Shown here: positions 3,990 through 7,540 of the stretch, piece after piece
How the letters are laid out: every line of letters begins with the position of its first letter
Position numbering within the stretch: position 1 is the first letter of the stretch
NCBI RefSeq assembly: GCF_009831105.1
Contig: NZ_WUUQ01000002.1
Location: 150,001 to 182,000, forward strand
From: Copranaerobaculum intestinale
GTDB taxonomy: Bacteria; Bacillota_I; Bacilli_A; Erysipelotrichales; Erysipelotrichaceae
DNA length: 32,000 nucleotides
Reading direction: 5' to 3'
Position numbers and translations under genes: made by a program
The notes under the pieces: model-generated
Told to the model about the DNA's origin: nothing
The model's database searches: none
What the model saw: the letters and a program-made list of their open reading frames with translations, nothing else

Positions 3990-4763
3990 ATGAAAAAAGG
4001 AAAACAAAAGGCGTTTATTTATCAATTTACCAATGTTATTTTGGTAATAGCAATAGTATTTACCGGATTGGGACTCATCCATGATGCGATGCAGGCTGAG
4101 TCATGGAACCATATGAGTTTTCTGGTCTATTATGGAGCGGCTTTGATTGTGTTTCTGCTGGCGCTCTTCTTTAATTTCGCATCCTTGCAGTATATATTTT
4201 ATCGGGAAATGCAGCCGCTGACAGCACGGACTGCTTATGAATATATTCTTCATGTAAGCCGTGGATATTATTCCGTGTATTTGCATTGCCTGATCTATCT
4301 TGGCTCCTTTTCAAAAGCCCAAGAGCTGCTGCAGGAATGGAAGCCATCAAAAAATCAAATGTTGTATGCGCATTATTTTGAAGGACTGTTGGCCTATTAT
4401 GAACAAGATAAGCAAACTCTTATTGCGAGTGTGCAGTGGTTTCAAAAGGATACTCAAGCTTTGGCTGATAACAAAGAAAAGCAAGAGCTTGCGGATAAAG
4501 CGCGTAATCGCCGCAAAAACAATTTCAAGTATCAGCTGGAGGCTAAAGCAGCGCTGTTGAATCATGATTATCCAACCGCACTTACAATACTTTCACAAGC
4601 TTTAGAAAGCTGCGATACCAACGTAGAAAAGCTGGCCATTACCTTTGATCAGGGGGTGGCATATGAGGGTATGAGTCAAAATGAACAGGCGCGTAGCTGC
4701 TTTCAGAAAGTGGGTGAGGGAAACAGCGATCTGTATTTTGTCAAACAGGCAAGAAAAAAATAG
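3990..4763 (+). CDS. Hypothetical membrane-anchored protein with a TPR-like helical C-terminal domain
   Basis: Two N-terminal hydrophobic helices (VILVIAIVFTGLGLI and LVYYGAALIVFLLALFF). The rest is helical repeat-like sequence (AQELL..., YPTALTILSQALE, NEQARSCFQKV). I recognise no enzymatic motif. Confidence 0.45.
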   Translation: MKKGKQKAFIYQFTNVILVIAIVFTGLGLIHDAMQAESWNHMSFLVYYGAALIVFLLALFFNFASLQYIFYREMQPLTARTAYEYILHVSRGYYSVYLHCLIYLGSFSKAQELLQEWKPSKNQMLYAHYFEGLLAYYEQDKQTLIASVQWFQKDTQALADNKEKQELADKARNRRKNNFKYQLEAKAALLNHDYPTALTILSQALESCDTNVEKLAITFDQGVAYEGMSQNEQARSCFQKVGEGNSDLYFVKQARKK

Positions 4764-4999: not shown

Positions 5000-5761
5000 T
5001 TAAGGCATGATGGATGTAGCACCATCGATCACTAAGCTCTGTCCGCTGAAATACTTGCTGTCAGGACCAGCTAGGAATGCGATAACCGGAGCGATATCGG
5101 TCAATGGATCACCCAAGCGTTTCATTGGCTGAGACTGCATAATCTCTGCGTATTTTTCTGGATTCTTTTTCGCCCATTCTTTTGCGGCCGGACTTTCAGC
5201 ACCAGGCAGTACAACATTGACGGTAATATTATACTGACCCCATTCCTTGGCGGCAATTTTGGTTAGACCACGTACGGATTCTTTATTACAGCCGTAAGCC
5301 AGCTGTCCTGCGTAGCCGAACATACCGGTAGCGGAAGCGAAATTAATGATACGTCCTTCTCCCTGTTCCTTCATGTACGGAAAGCATTCCTGCATAAAGT
5401 TTAATGAACCGATCGTTCCGCCCTGCCATGCCAGAAGCATGTTTTCATAGGTAGTATCTTCTACCGTGGCTTTACCTGGTAAGGTTTGTGCGTTATTAAC
5501 CATCACATCAATTGAGCCAAAACGCTTAACGGTTTCTTGAACAACTTCCTTAACCCGGGCACGATCTGCCACATCACAGGAGATGGCAAATGCCTCATTA
5601 CCATTTGCTTTAATTTCCTCAGCAGTGGCAGTAATGGGATCAATTCGTCTTCCAACACAGACTACTTTAACTCCGCGTTCTGCCAAACACAGAGCAATTC
5701 CTTTACCGATGCCCTGACCCGCTCCTGTAACAATAGCTACCTTTTCATGTAATTGTTTCAT
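5000..5761 (-). CDS. Classical SDR-family oxidoreductase (3-oxoacyl-ACP reductase-like)
   Basis: TGAGQGIGKGIA (NAD(P)-binding), NNA and the catalytic S...YGCNK are present. The ORF track starts at 5767, but GGAGG spacing favours the ATG at 5761 (MKQLHEK). Confidence 0.8.
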   Translation of the reverse strand: MKQLHEKVAIVTGAGQGIGKGIALCLAERGVKVVCVGRRIDPITATAEEIKANGNEAFAISCDVADRARVKEVVQETVKRFGSIDVMVNNAQTLPGKATVEDTTYENMLLAWQGGTIGSLNFMQECFPYMKEQGEGRIINFASATGMFGYAGQLAYGCNKESVRGLTKIAAKEWGQYNITVNVVLPGAESPAAKEWAKKNPEKYAEIMQSQPMKRLGDPLTDIAPVIAFLAGPDSKYFSGQSLVIDGATSIMP

Positions 5762-6039
5762 AATCATCCTCCTATTTTCATGTCTACTTACATTATAATC
5801 CTTTCATGCGGAAGCGAAAGTCCTTTCTTGGAAAAAGGATGCCTTTTTGCACATTATGAGGAGGTTCTTTTGATTTTTTATGATAGTTTCCCGATTTGAA
5901 AGAAAATTCTAATAACACAAAACCCTTATTTATCATTATATCATCTATAAAAAGGTACCCAACCTACTATAAAAACACCCATAAACACGGTTGCAAAATT
6001 GTATAATGAAAGCGTATTCAGAAAATTCTCTGAAATTTG

Positions 6040-6068
6040 TTGACATGAAATTTTGAATAGCTTATAAT
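6040..6068 (+). promoter_or_regulatory. Consensus sigma-A promoter of the triple-RidA gene
   Basis: TTGACA (6040-6045), an exact 17-nt spacer, then TATAAT (6063-6068). It lies 52 nt upstream of the ATG at 6120, which is preceded by AAAGGAGA. Confidence 0.75.
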
Positions 6069-6119
6069 CCGCCTGTTAATTCTATTAACGAGCATATATG
6101 AAAAGGAGAATAACAATAT

Positions 6120-7388
6120 ATGAGTAACGACAACGTAGTATTAGGAAGAAATACCGAAAACGCTCCAAAGTGTCCATATAGTTCACAGACAGTAGCATTT
6201 TCACACTACAACAACCTTTCTGCACAATTACCGATTGATCCGAAGACCGGCAATCTGGTAGCTGGCGGAATTAAAGAACAGGCAGAGCAGTGTTTACATA
6301 ATATCAAAGCTATCGTGGAAAGCATTGACCACGTCATGAGCGATGTTATCCGGATCACCGTATTTGTAAAAAACATCAAACATGTTGACGCCGTTGATGA
6401 AGTATACAAAACATTCTTTACGACATACCTGCCGGCGCGTACAACCGTAGCGGTAGCGGATCTGCCAATGGGTGCCATGGTTCAGGTAGAAGCATTGATC
6501 TCCTGCGGCGAGGGAACAATTCCGAATGCGCCTCAGTCCGGCGATCTGATCAAACTGACAAACAATACCGCAAATGCACCGCTGAGCGCTTTATCTACTC
6601 AGACGGTAGCGTTCTCACACTATAACAACCTGACGGCACAGCTGCCTATTTCACCAAAAACCGGCAGAGTGGTAGCGGGTGGCATCAAGGAACAGACGAT
6701 CCAGTGCTTAAGCAACATTAAAGCAATCCTGGAAAGCATCGATGTACCTTTTGATGATATTGTGAAAACAACAATTTACGTAAAAGACCTTGCGGATATG
6801 GATAAGGTAAACGAAGTTTATACAACGTTCCACCCGGATTCAGCAATCGCAAGAGCGGTCGGCTATATGCCTGCTCGTACTGTCGTTGAAGCTGCTGATC
6901 TGCCGATGGGCGCTTTGATTCAGATTGAAGTAGTTGTATCTCATGGCGATGGCACTCCTCCACAGCTGGTGGAAGACAGACATGGTCTGATTATCGAAGC
7001 AAACAATACGGAACATGCACCGGTATGCAAATATGCTTCTCAGACAGTGGCTTTCTCACACTACAACAACATTTCAGGACAGTTTCCGATCGATGCGGAA
7101 ACTGGTAAAATTGTTGCGGGCGGAGTGAAAGAACAAACGGTTCAGTGCCTAAACAACATCAAAACGATTATTGAAAGTGTTGATCACGTAATCGAAGATG
7201 TCGTAAAGGTGAATATCTATCTTAAAAACCTTTCCGATATGGATGCTATGAATGAGGCTTATTCGACTTTCTTTCCAGATGGAGTACCGGCAAGAAGAAT
7301 CGTTGGTGTTTCCAACCTAGCGCATGATGCATTGGTTGAAATCGAAGCAATCGTAGGAAATGCGGAAGGTACACCTCCGGTAAAATAA
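6120..7388 (+). CDS. Three tandem RidA/YjgF/YER057c/UK114 domains fused in one polypeptide
   Basis: SQTVAFSHYNN(L/I)(S/T)(A/G)Q(L/F)PI...TG..VAGG(I/V)KEQ..QCL.NIK.I.ES(I/V)D occurs three times, with the Q codons at 6186, 6600 and 7041. Each module ends in PAR...(V/I)E and a G(E/D)GT(I/P)P linker. Confidence 0.85.
   Translation: MSNDNVVLGRNTENAPKCPYSSQTVAFSHYNNLSAQLPIDPKTGNLVAGGIKEQAEQCLHNIKAIVESIDHVMSDVIRITVFVKNIKHVDAVDEVYKTFFTTYLPARTTVAVADLPMGAMVQVEALISCGEGTIPNAPQSGDLIKLTNNTANAPLSALSTQTVAFSHYNNLTAQLPISPKTGRVVAGGIKEQTIQCLSNIKAILESIDVPFDDIVKTTIYVKDLADMDKVNEVYTTFHPDSAIARAVGYMPARTVVEAADLPMGALIQIEVVVSHGDGTPPQLVEDRHGLIIEANNTEHAPVCKYASQTVAFSHYNNISGQFPIDAETGKIVAGGVKEQTVQCLNNIKTIIESVDHVIEDVVKVNIYLKNLSDMDAMNEAYSTFFPDGVPARRIVGVSNLAHDALVEIEAIVGNAEGTPPVK
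6141..7358 (+). repeat. Diverged intragenic triplication (RidA modules at about 6141-6509, 6546-6947 and 6984-7358)
   Basis: Offsets between equivalent codons are 414 nt and 441 nt. By hand alignment, roughly half the residues are identical between modules 1 and 3. The DNA copies are clearly diverged, so this is not a recent duplication. Confidence 0.8.
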
Positions 7389-7413
7389 GCAGTATACTAT
7401 AAGTATAAAATAG

Positions 7414-7451
7414 ACAGATGATTGCCTACGGAGAAATCATCTGTTTTTTTC
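7414..7451 (+). terminator. Rho-independent terminator of the triple-RidA gene
   Basis: ACAGATGATT (7414-7423) pairs with AATCATCTGT (7435-7444), followed by a 7-T run. Confidence 0.8.
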
Positions 7452-7484
7452 TATTTAAAAAGGATTCAGCAAGATGCTTTCACA

Positions 7485-7519
7485 ATAAAAAGCCTTCCAT
7501 ATCGATGATTGGAAGGCTT
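7485..7519 (-). terminator. Rho-independent terminator of rqcH
   Basis: AGCCTTCCA (7491-7499) pairs with TGGAAGGCT (7510-7518). The minus-strand RNA is followed by UUUUAU. Confidence 0.7.
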
Positions 7520-7540
7520 CATGGTACACGTCTATGTCGA

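What the first reader, a model, noticed from the sequence alone, without database searches (positions are those of the whole stretch)
6120..7388. Three RidA (YjgF/UK114) domains fused into one chain, a possible covalent pseudo-trimer
**Seen in the sequence**
- One uninterrupted 422-codon ORF contains three complete RidA-like modules.
- The block SQTVAFSHYNN...PI...TG..VAGG.KEQ..QCL.NIK recurs with Q codons at 6186, 6600 and 7041.
- Each module is followed by the same G(E/D)GT(I/P)P linker.
- All three keep the PAR arginine (the Arg105 equivalent that S. enterica RidA needs for imine hydrolysis) and the C-terminal (V/I)E.
- Module 2 alone carries an extra segment of about 9 aa (HPDSAIARAVGY) just before PAR.
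- Module 3 changes DLPMGA to NLAHDA.

**Established knowledge**
RidA-family proteins are obligate homotrimers, and their three active sites sit in the inter-subunit clefts.

**Inference**
- A 3x fusion would build the trimer from one chain and let the three clefts diverge, giving asymmetric or specialised sites.
- The gene is monocistronic, with a textbook TTGACA-17-TATAAT promoter and its own terminator, which suggests high expression.
- I do not know of a characterised triple RidA.
Basis: partly seen in the sequence, partly recalled or inferred. Interest (0 to 1): 0.8.

Follow-up and report, generated by a model that had tools for sequence, protein, structure and literature searches.

The report
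Triple RidA fusion, already named 3x-RidA
This gene really does fuse three RidA (imine deaminase) domains into one chain that is predicted to fold like the usual RidA trimer, but the architecture was named "3x-RidA" in 2015 and is common in databases, so it is a known though still biochemically untested protein type.

Summary
ORF 6120..7388 (+) encodes 422 aa made of three complete RidA modules. Each module alone passes Pfam PF01042, and all three keep the Arg105-equivalent arginine. The consensus promoter, the terminator and the monocistronic layout are also real.

The "covalent pseudo-trimer" reading is supported. An AlphaFold2 model built on a diverse alignment is compact (pLDDT 87, pTM 0.90). 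Each module matches solved RidA monomers, and the whole chain aligns with chorismatase over about 380 columns.

It is not new. Niehaus et al. 2015 (PMC4433059) named this subset "3x-RidA" (example EF_0115) and called the proteins "presumably covalently linked trimer units". The window protein is 100% identical to deposited, annotated proteins. More than 5000 database proteins match at E <= 1e-10, and at least 274 species genomes encode a relative. I found no biochemical or structural study.

Points added here:
- One ancestral triplication explains this clade, and other 3x families arose independently.
- 4x variants exist.
- Glu120 is replaced by Gln and Tyr17 mostly by Leu across the family.
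- Module 2 carries a conserved 8-aa insert.
- The gene has moved horizontally between bacterial classes.

Verdict: already known; interest low to moderate.

The parts
6040..6068 (+). Sigma-70-type promoter, TTGACA-17 nt-TATAAT
   Evidence: 12 of 12 consensus match. Function is inferred, not measured.
6102..6109 (+). Shine-Dalgarno region AAAGGAGA, 10 nt upstream of the ATG
   Evidence: Read directly from the sequence. AAAGGAGA or AAAGGGGA occurs upstream of 54 of 84 family genes, the window included.
6120..7388 (+). 3x-RidA coding sequence, 422 aa plus stop
   Evidence: ORF. PF01042 in three stretches, 255.5 bits. TIGR00004 at 285 bits. 100% identical to deposited proteins annotated as reactive intermediate/imine deaminase.
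6120..6518 (+). Module 1 (aa 1-133). The Arg105 equivalent is R107 (6438-6440).
   Evidence: PF01042 89.4 bits alone. TIGR00004 108.4 bits, above the 106.25 cutoff. R107 is Arg in only 98 of 114 close homologues.
6507..6545 (+). Linker 1, GEGTIPNAPQSGD (aa 130-142)
   Evidence: pLDDT is below 50 for residues 131-140. The sequence is nevertheless nearly invariant in homologues: I134, P135, P138, Q139, G141, D142.
6519..6953 (+). Module 2 (aa 134-278). The Arg105 equivalent is R253 (6876-6878).
   Evidence: PF01042 83.2 bits alone. R253 is Arg in 111 of 114 homologues and E270 is invariant.
6843..6866 (+). Module 2-specific 8-aa insert AIARAVGY (aa 242-249), just before the PAR arginine
   Evidence: It appears as a gap in modules 1 and 3. 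I243, A244, R245 and Y249 are 100% conserved in 114 sequences. AF2 predicts a short helix at 242-246.
6945..6986 (+). Linker 2, GDGTPPQLVEDRHG (aa 276-289)
   Evidence: pLDDT dips here, with a block mean of 54 for residues 281-290. T279, P280, P281, Q282, R287, H288 and G289 are invariant.
6954..7385 (+). Module 3 (aa 279-422). The Arg105 equivalent is R392 (7293-7295). Ends in the tail AEGTPPVK.
   Evidence: PF01042 99.3 bits alone. R392 is Arg in 111 of 114 homologues. E407 keeps the canonical Glu120, where 86% of the family has Gln.
7412..7450 (+). Intrinsic terminator: 12-bp stem, internal loop, U7 tract
   Evidence: RNA fold of 7386-7470 gives -17.6 kcal/mol, z = -2.56. The consensus scan did not report it.

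Best explanation
The gene encodes a member of the already described 3x-RidA group: three RidA-subfamily domains fused head to tail in one 46-kDa chain.

**How it is built**
- The chain is predicted to fold into the same barrel that ordinary RidA forms from three separate subunits.
- One polypeptide therefore supplies all three inter-module clefts.
- Each cleft keeps the carboxylate-anchoring arginine (R107, R253, R392).

**Most likely activity (inferred, not shown)**
- Hydrolysis of reactive enamine/imine intermediates, such as 2-aminoacrylate released by PLP enzymes, to 2-oxoacids and ammonia, as in canonical RidA.

**Origin**
- The fusion arose by tandem duplication of a whole gene including its GxGTPP tail, once for this clade.
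- Fusion allows the three modules to differ. The differences are a module 2 insert, an extra Arg393 in module 3, and a less conserved arginine in module 1. They are modest.

**Expression**
- The gene is transcribed alone, from a consensus sigma-A promoter to its own terminator.
For: **Shown**
- Three independent PF01042 hits, and TIGR00004 hits for the whole protein and for module 1.
- The best PDB sequence matches are RidA/YjgF proteins.
- The Arg105 equivalent is present in all three modules and is 86-97% conserved in 114 homologues.
- The residues equivalent to the trimer salt bridge are kept in every module: R78/K216/K363 and E124/E270/E409. The bridge itself is described for AtRidA K136-E182 in PMC4960622.
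- The AF2 model has pLDDT 87.2 and pTM 0.90, with low confidence only at the termini and the two linkers.
- By Foldseek, each module matches RidA monomers at TM 0.85-0.95. The whole chain aligns over about 380 columns with single-chain chorismatase 4bps/5ag3 at TM 0.5-0.6.
- Modules 1, 2 and 3 each form a separate clade across species, which points to a single triplication.
- Niehaus et al. 2015 define 3x-RidA and make the same inference.
- E. faecalis carries a full-length homologue at 67.7% identity.

**Inferred**
- The deaminase activity itself.
- The geometry of the three sites.
Against: - No enzymatic or structural data exist for any 3x-RidA.
- Glu120 of canonical RidA is Gln in modules 1 and 2. 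This is invariant in the family, and 86% of the family also has Gln in module 3.
- Tyr17 is Leu in module 2, and mostly Leu in all three modules across the family. Alanine substitutions at these two positions had little effect in S. enterica RidA (PMC4433059).
- Modules 2 and 3 alone fall just below the TIGR00004 cutoff (92.9 and 103.4 against 106.25).
The pseudo-C3 geometry therefore rests on pTM and on the chorismatase alignment, not on a superposition with a RidA trimer.
- Gene context is not conserved, so no pathway can be assigned.
Confidence: 0.8

Rival explanations
1. The protein has the RidA fold but a different primary role. It could be a stress-response protein such as a redox- or chlorination-activated holdase (as reported for E. 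coli RidA), or a deaminase/hydrolase for another reactive electrophile. It would not be the housekeeping 2-aminoacrylate deaminase.
For: - The family replaces Glu120 with Gln and Tyr17 with Leu.
- It carries its own invariant motifs in every module: S-H-Y-N-N and Q-C, with one conserved Cys per module.
- Regulatory neighbours of orthologues are stress-type:
  - a divergent MerR/GyrI-like regulator with a MerR-type promoter in 14 loci;
  - divergent HxlR in enterococci;
  - groES-groEL directly upstream in 8 Bacillales loci.
- The residues lining the pocket, other than the arginine, are the most variable positions.
- E. coli RidA becomes a chaperone on N-chlorination (PMC4284807, abstract listed).
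Against: - The window gene has none of these regulators. It has a plain consensus sigma-A promoter.
- The arginine that defines imine-hydrolysing Rid subfamilies is retained in all modules.
- Neighbour associations cover only a minority of the 83 loci.
- The sigB-like reading of the Bacillales upstream motif is untested.
Confidence: 0.15
2. It is a chorismatase-like specialised enzyme. The pseudo-trimer would serve as a scaffold for a single evolved active site, and the other two clefts would be vestigial.
For: Whole-chain Foldseek alignment to chorismatase 4bps/5ag3, E about 1e-13 and TM 0.49-0.61 over about 380 columns. From my own knowledge, chorismatase FkbO is a monomer with pseudo-threefold symmetry related to the YjgF/RidA trimer (Juneja et al. 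2014). I could not confirm this in the papers available here.
Against: - Only 14-15% identity to chorismatase.
- No Pfam or NCBIfam match other than Rid reaches its cutoff.
- All three modules are about equally conserved (0.87, 0.89, 0.84), and all keep the arginine.
- The gene is not in a biosynthetic cluster.
Confidence: 0.03
3. The triple ORF is an assembly or sequencing artefact that joins three adjacent RidA genes.
For: None found.
Against: - The identical 422-aa protein occurs in several independent assemblies. P0001 is on 6 contigs and the near-identical P0009 on 12.
- Full-length orthologues occur in at least 274 species genomes, including complete chromosomes and plasmids.
- The linkers are conserved and in frame.
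Confidence: 0.01

Closest known systems
3x-RidA subset of the RidA subfamily (Niehaus et al. 2015, BMC Genomics 16:382; example EF_0115 of Enterococcus faecalis V583)
   Same: The architecture is the same: three RidA domains in tandem, about 422 aa. The proposed covalent trimer is the same. The window protein is 67.7% identical over its full length to the E. faecalis 3x 'RidA family protein', 74-80% identical to homologues in many Bacillota, and 100% identical to deposited annotated proteins.
   Different: Nothing categorical. The window copy sits on an outlying branch:
- synonymous sites are saturated against all 82 compared orthologues;
- it keeps Glu at 407 and Tyr at 20 and 305, where the family mostly has Gln and Leu;
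- it has NLAHDA in module 3;
- it lacks the conserved 5' and 3' UTR sequences of the main clade.
Canonical homotrimeric RidA/YjgF/UK114 (e.g. E. coli RidA 1QU9, TdcF 2UYN, PH0854 2DYY)
   Same: - The fold of each module (TM 0.85-0.95, 33-42% identity).
- The Arg105 carboxylate anchor.
- The inter-subunit Lys/Glu pair.
- Clefts predicted at module interfaces.
   Different: - One chain instead of three, with conserved 13-14-residue linkers.
- Gln for Glu120 in modules 1 and 2.
- Leu for Tyr17 in module 2.
- Family-specific SHYNN and QC motifs.
- The modules can and do differ from one another.
Chorismatases FkbO/Hyg5 (PDB 4BPS, 5AG3)
   Same: A single chain containing three YjgF-like domains. It aligns with the whole model over about 380 columns and is a characterised precedent for a covalent pseudo-trimer of this fold.
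   Different: - Only 14-15% identity.
- Chorismatase acts on chorismate at one specialised site (own knowledge).
- In the window protein all three modules remain RidA-like and score as RidA.
Other, independently arisen 3x-Rid proteins and 4x variants
   Same: Dozens of 50%-identity clusters of 350-460 aa proteins with three Rid stretches at 25-39% identity.
   Different: Their modules cluster within each protein rather than with modules 1, 2 or 3 of this clade, which implies separate triplications. The 4x forms (Laribacter P0013, P0016, P0017) arose by re-duplicating module 1 or module 2 of this clade.

Membership tests
Rid family (Pfam PF01042, Endoribonuclease L-PSP / YjgF) | Domain match above the Pfam gathering score | tested here: met
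   Three stretches. Each module alone scores 89.4, 83.2 and 99.3 bits against a cutoff of 27.3.
RidA-type detoxifying hydrolase (NCBIfam TIGR00004) | Score above the curated cutoff of 106.25 bits | tested here: inconclusive
   The whole protein scores 285 bits and module 1 scores 108.4, both above the cutoff. Modules 2 and 3 score 92.9 and 103.4, just below it.
RidA subfamily (imine-hydrolysing Rid) | Conserved arginine equivalent to Arg105 | tested here: met
   R107, R253 and R392 align with Arg105. Conservation in 114 homologues is 86%, 97% and 97%.
RidA subfamily (imine-hydrolysing Rid) | Conserved Glu120 and Tyr17 near the site | tested here: not met
   - Glu120 corresponds to Q122, Q268 and E407, so only module 3 keeps Glu.
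- Tyr17 corresponds to Y20, L158 and Y305, and is mostly Leu in the family.
- Alanine substitutions at these positions had little effect in S. enterica RidA, so they are not strictly required.
RidA subfamily | Trimeric barrel with sites at subunit interfaces | tested here: met
   Prediction only. AF2 pTM is 0.90 for the whole chain, there is a whole-chain match to pseudo-trimeric chorismatase, and the interface Lys/Glu pair is retained in each module. I could not superimpose the model on a RidA trimer because no coordinates were available.
RidA subfamily | Enamine/imine deaminase activity | not testable with these tools
   Needs an enzyme assay or genetic complementation.
3x-RidA (Niehaus et al. 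2015) | [quoted passage not shown] | tested here: met
   The definition is quoted.
3x-RidA (Niehaus et al. 2015) | Homology to the named example EF_0115 of E. faecalis | tested here: met
   An E. faecalis 'RidA family protein' matches at 67.7% identity and 100% coverage. It lies next to a family 20 glycosylhydrolase. That this neighbourhood is EF_0114/EF_0115 rests on my memory. The V583 sequence itself was not retrieved.
Chorismatase (FkbO/Hyg5/XanB2) | Sequence-level membership | tested here: not met
   Only 14-15% identity in the structural alignment. No family other than Rid reaches its Pfam or NCBIfam cutoff. The resemblance is limited to the overall fold.

The most novel reading that the evidence does not exclude
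The 3x-RidA clade, this protein included, may be more than a stapled RidA trimer. It could be a horizontally mobile, lineage-specifically stress-regulated enzyme with an altered catalytic set: Gln for Glu120, Leu for Tyr17, and invariant SHYNN and Cys motifs. Its three clefts would be non-equivalent, given the module 2 insert with invariant Arg245, the Arg393 next to the catalytic arginine in module 3, and the dispensable arginine in module 1. It would act on substrates other than 2-aminoacrylate, for example carbamoyl-phosphate- or electrophile-derived species.
Probability: 0.25. Interest if true: 0.5.

Novelty: already known. Interest (0 to 1): 0.25.

Why it matters
As a discovery it matters little. 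The architecture and the covalent-trimer idea were published in 2015, and the exact protein is already deposited and annotated.

It does have some value as an experimental system. Site-by-site mutagenesis is impossible in a homotrimer, because any mutation hits all three sites. A natural single-chain RidA would allow it, and no 3x-RidA has been assayed or solved.

Three patterns found here give concrete hypotheses for anyone who takes the family up:
- the loss of Glu120 and Tyr17 across the family;
- the conserved module 2 insert;
- the spread between bacterial classes and onto plasmids.

Tried and rejected
- **AF2 on a shallow alignment.** With close homologues only (A1, all at least 74% identical) the model was unusable, at pLDDT 55. 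I replaced it with a diverse alignment, A3.
- **CodY control.** Two CodY-box-like motifs abut the -35 hexamer at 6013-6038. Against that, the window holds 6 matches where 3.7 are expected by chance, and I saw no similar motif upstream of the orthologues I inspected. I treat this as unsupported.
- **Riboswitch or leader.** No Rfam family matches in the window or in the UTRs of 8 orthologous loci.
- **Conserved operon context.** None exists. The gene is isolated in all 83 loci, and recurrent neighbours cover only minorities of them.
- **Diversifying selection.** Similar identity at amino-acid and synonymous sites raised this suspicion. It is rejected: the Nei-Gojobori dN/dS median is 0.17. The pattern reflects recent horizontal transfer instead.
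- **DNA-level tandem repeat.** Not detectable in the window.
- **High expression from codon bias.** Not supported.
- **Second Rid gene in the window.** None found.
- **Literature.** Seven searches found no characterisation of a triple RidA beyond Niehaus et al. 2015.
Full report
**1.

- Window 6120..7388 (+) is one uninterrupted ORF of 422 codons. Its translation contains three RidA-like modules.
- Pfam PF01042 matches in three stretches (255.5 bits). Each third scanned alone passes the 27.3-bit gathering score by a wide margin: 89.4, 83.2 and 99.3 bits.
- NCBIfam TIGR00004 ('Rid family detoxifying hydrolase') scores 285 bits for the whole protein. The modules alone score 108.4, 92.9 and 103.4 against a cutoff of 106.25.
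- The modules are 51-58% identical to each other, with BLASTP E = 4e-55 and 4e-56. They are 36-39% identical to E. coli RidA, whose sequence I recalled from memory. In that recalled sequence the residues at positions 17, 30, 88, 105, 107 and 120 are the ones I expected.
  - the Q codons at 6186, 6600 and 7041;
  - the G(E/D)GT(I/P)P motif after every module;
  - the PAR arginines R107, R253 and R392;
  - an insert specific to module 2, which is 8 residues (AIARAVGY, 242-249);
  - NLAHDA in module 3.
- The promoter TTGACA-17-TATAAT at 6040-6068 is a perfect 12/12 match.
- A 12-bp stem followed by U7 at 7412-7450 folds at -17.6 kcal/mol (z = -2.56).
- The neighbouring genes are divergent and convergent, so the gene stands alone.
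- The neighbours are a short-chain dehydrogenase and an NFACT/RqcH-like protein. Further away lie a PLP-dependent enzyme, a hexapeptide transferase, AsnA, guanylate kinase and PriA. None suggests a pathway.

**2. The pseudo-trimer reading is supported by prediction**

- A first AlphaFold2 run used only close homologues and failed, at pLDDT 55.
- I then collected divergent triple-Rid proteins and built a 52-sequence alignment.
- The resulting model has mean pLDDT 87.2 and pTM 0.90. Confidence is below 50 only at residues 1-4, 131-140 (linker 1) and 417-422, and it dips to a block mean of 54 at residues 281-290 in linker 2.
- A pTM of 0.90 over 422 residues means the three modules are placed confidently relative to one another.
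- Foldseek against the PDB matches each module to solved RidA/UK114/YjgF monomers at TM 0.85-0.95 (normalised by target length) and RMSD 1-2 Å.
- Foldseek also aligns about 380 columns of the model to single-chain chorismatase (4BPS, 5AG3) at TM 0.49-0.61.
- From my own knowledge, chorismatase FkbO is a monomer with pseudo-threefold symmetry related to the YjgF trimer. It would be a characterised precedent for a covalent pseudo-trimer of this fold.
- The Lys-Glu pair that holds RidA trimers together is K136-E182 in AtRidA (PMC4960622). Its equivalents are present in every module: R78/K216/K363 and E124/E270/E409.
- I could not obtain model coordinates. A direct superposition on a RidA trimer was therefore not done.

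**3. It is not new**

- Niehaus et al. [quoted passage not shown] - The window protein is 100% identical to deposited proteins annotated as 'reactive intermediate/imine deaminase' from a Clostridiaceae isolate and an Erysipelotrichaceae MAG.
- More than 5000 database proteins match at E <= 1e-10. Nearly all of the best 120 are 416-452 aa long and 74-80% identical to the window protein. They come from Enterococcus, Carnobacterium, Bacillus, Sporosarcina, Romboutsia, Lacrimispora and others.
- A scan of one genome per species found 274 genomes encoding a relative.
- An E. faecalis 3x 'RidA family protein' is 67.7% identical over the full length.
- No PDB chain has this architecture.
- Seven full-text searches found no biochemical or structural study of a triple RidA.
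The architecture and its interpretation are prior art.

**4. What the family looks like (added here)**

*Origin*
- In a neighbour-joining tree of individual modules, modules 1, 2 and 3 of this clade each group across species. That points to one ancestral triplication.
- The 4x proteins re-duplicated module 1 (Laribacter hongkongensis, 579 aa) or module 2 (two metagenomic proteins).
- Many other proteins of 350-460 aa carry three Rid stretches at 25-39% identity. Their modules cluster within each protein, so triple fusion has arisen repeatedly. The tree has no support values.

*Catalytic residues in 114 close homologues*

| E. coli RidA position | Module 1 | Module 2 | Module 3 |
|---|---|---|---|
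| Arg105 | Arg in 86% | Arg in 97% | Arg in 97% |
| Glu120 | Gln, invariant | Gln, invariant | Gln in 86% (the window keeps E407) |
| Tyr17 | mostly Leu (Y20 in the window) | Leu, invariant | mostly Leu (Y305 in the window) |

- Alanine substitutions at Tyr17 and Glu120 had little effect in S. enterica RidA (PMC4433059). These changes therefore do not rule out deaminase activity.
- Every module carries the invariant family motifs S-H-Y-N-N and Q-C.

*Asymmetry*
- It is real but modest. Of 132 columns shared by the three modules, 31 are conserved and identical in all three.
- Only 7 are conserved but different between modules. These include R78/K216/K363 and T108/T254/R393.
- Added to this is the module 2 insert, whose I243, A244, R245 and Y249 are 100% conserved.

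*Variable positions*
- The most variable positions are the Tyr17-loop equivalents (17-21, 155-157, 302-306), the residues flanking the arginine, and the equivalents of E. coli K115/D116.
- From general knowledge of RidA structures, these line the cleft.

**5. Evolutionary dynamics (added here)**

- Orthologues from different classes are far more similar at the DNA level than vertical descent allows.
- For example, Psychrobacillus (Bacilli) and a Clostridium MAG share 91% nucleotide identity. Their identity at four-fold degenerate third positions is 0.88, against 0.41 expected from codon usage.
- Nei-Gojobori dS is 0.23-0.46 for such pairs, and the median dN/dS is 0.17. This indicates purifying selection with recent horizontal transfer, not diversifying selection.
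- Copies occur outside Bacillota:
  - Flavobacterium bizetiae and Azoarcus taiwanensis, and Laribacter hongkongensis;
  - Chloroflexi, Gordonibacter, Desulfovibrionaceae and Candidatus Adiutrix MAGs, the last with gene GC 0.46 in a locus of GC 0.64;
  - 85-104 kb Vibrio parahaemolyticus plasmids.
- The similarity extends about 17-40 nt upstream and about 130 nt downstream of the coding sequence. The downstream stretch is a conserved 3' UTR ending in a terminator, recognisable in more than 40 loci.
- The window copy is an outlier. It is 72-80% identical in protein, its synonymous sites are saturated against all 82 compared orthologues, and it lacks the conserved UTRs.
- The window gene's GC content (0.45) matches its surroundings (0.44).

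**6. Function**

- The gene is isolated in all 83 orthologous loci. The median gap is 376 nt upstream and 272 nt downstream, and no upstream gap is shorter than 60 nt. Its neighbours are not conserved.
- Recurrent minority contexts are:
  - a divergent MerR/GyrI-like regulator with a MerR-type promoter, in 14 mostly clostridial loci;
  - a divergent HxlR regulator in enterococci;
  - groES-groEL directly upstream in 8 Bacillales loci;
  - on Vibrio plasmids, a position right after an arcC-permease-aguA-argF cluster. This echoes the link between RidA and carbamoyl phosphate proposed by Niehaus et al..
- The window gene has none of these. It has a consensus sigma-A promoter.
- Two CodY-like boxes lie next to the -35 hexamer but are not statistically convincing, and I saw no similar motif upstream of the orthologues I inspected.
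- Codon bias is ordinary, so high expression is only suggested.
- The best-supported mechanism remains RidA-type hydrolysis of enamine/imine intermediates at three arginine-containing inter-module clefts of a single-chain barrel.
- My confidence is about 0.9 for the architecture and about 0.6 for the activity.
- The main rival is a stress-linked or altered-substrate role for the family, at about 0.15.

**7. Verdict**

The structural interpretation is supported. The novelty claim is not, because this is a deposited, annotated member of the published 3x-RidA group. The remaining interest lies in the absence of any experimental characterisation and in the family-level patterns described above.

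Noticed in passing
L001-L083 (orthologous loci), e.g. L027 4001-5278 against L018 4001-5278: 3x-RidA genes from different bacterial classes share 88-91% nucleotide identity. Identity at four-fold degenerate sites is 0.73-0.88, against about 0.4 expected. dS is 0.23-0.46 and median dN/dS is 0.17. This indicates recent horizontal transfer across Bacilli, Clostridia, Chloroflexi and others. The window copy is a saturated outlier.
   Followed up: yes
L027 5273-5400, L018 5273-5400 and more than 40 other loci. Absent at window 7389-7540.: A conserved 3' UTR of about 130 nt follows the stop codon in the main clade and ends in a terminator (CAGGCATTTGTTTGTAAATACAGGAAC...ATGCGAAATCGCAT...GGGGCTGTCTCA...TGAGACAGC-T tract). 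There is also a conserved 5' UTR, ..TTAATAAATTTATCTAAAAGGGGAATACTATCATG. No Rfam family matches either. They may simply travel with the transferred cassette.
   Followed up: partly
L003, L010, L012, L018, L022, L024, L031, L032, L040, L048, L054, L067, L074, L080 (upstream of the gene): In 14 mostly clostridial loci the gene is preceded by a promoter of the type TTGAC-N-TT..AGC.A.TC.A.GG. About 11 loci also have a nearby MerR + GyrI-like regulator, immediately upstream and divergent in 8. Enterococcal loci have a divergent HxlR regulator instead.
   Followed up: partly
L002, L009, L027, L030, L036, L037, L038, L043, L046: In Bacillales loci the motif GGTTTAGACC-N-GCGAAAC lies upstream of the gene. 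In 8 Bacillales loci the gene sits directly downstream of groES-groEL on the same strand. The motif might be a sigma-B-type promoter, but this is untested.
   Followed up: no
L084 (V. parahaemolyticus plasmid pHLC) 1-6245: On shrimp-associated Vibrio plasmids of 85-104 kb, a 3x-RidA (59% identity) lies right after arcC, an APC permease, aguA (agmatine deiminase) and argF. This carbamoyl-phosphate-producing cluster is consistent with the link between RidA and carbamoyl phosphate proposed in PMC4433059.
   Followed up: partly
P0013 (Laribacter hongkongensis, 579 aa), P0016 (634 aa), P0017 (565 aa): These are four-module (4x) RidA proteins derived from this clade. They arose by re-duplication of module 1 (P0013, nearly identical copies) or of module 2 (P0016, P0017). 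How a fourth module fits a threefold barrel is unexplained.
   Followed up: partly
window 6013-6038: Two overlapping CodY-box-like motifs (3 and 2 mismatches to AATTTTCWGAAAATT) abut the -35 hexamer. The window as a whole holds 6 such matches where 3.7 are expected by chance, and I saw no similar motif upstream of the orthologues I inspected.
   Followed up: yes
window 6000-6007: An extended -10-like element, TGTATAAT, lies about 60 nt upstream of the main promoter and has no proper -35. It could be a second, weaker start site.
   Followed up: no
window 3990-4763 (+): A 257-aa ORF with no Pfam family above cutoff. It has only weak sub-threshold similarity to TPR_12 and to AimR-like regulators (E about 2e-4).
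   Followed up: no
L027 about 5400-5700; also L018, L009 and L075 downstream of the 3x-RidA terminator: A second block of about 240 nt, 94-95% identical between Bacilli and Clostridia loci, lies beyond the terminator. It could be an insertion-sequence remnant, which would fit the gene's mobility. It was not analysed or annotated.
   Followed up: no
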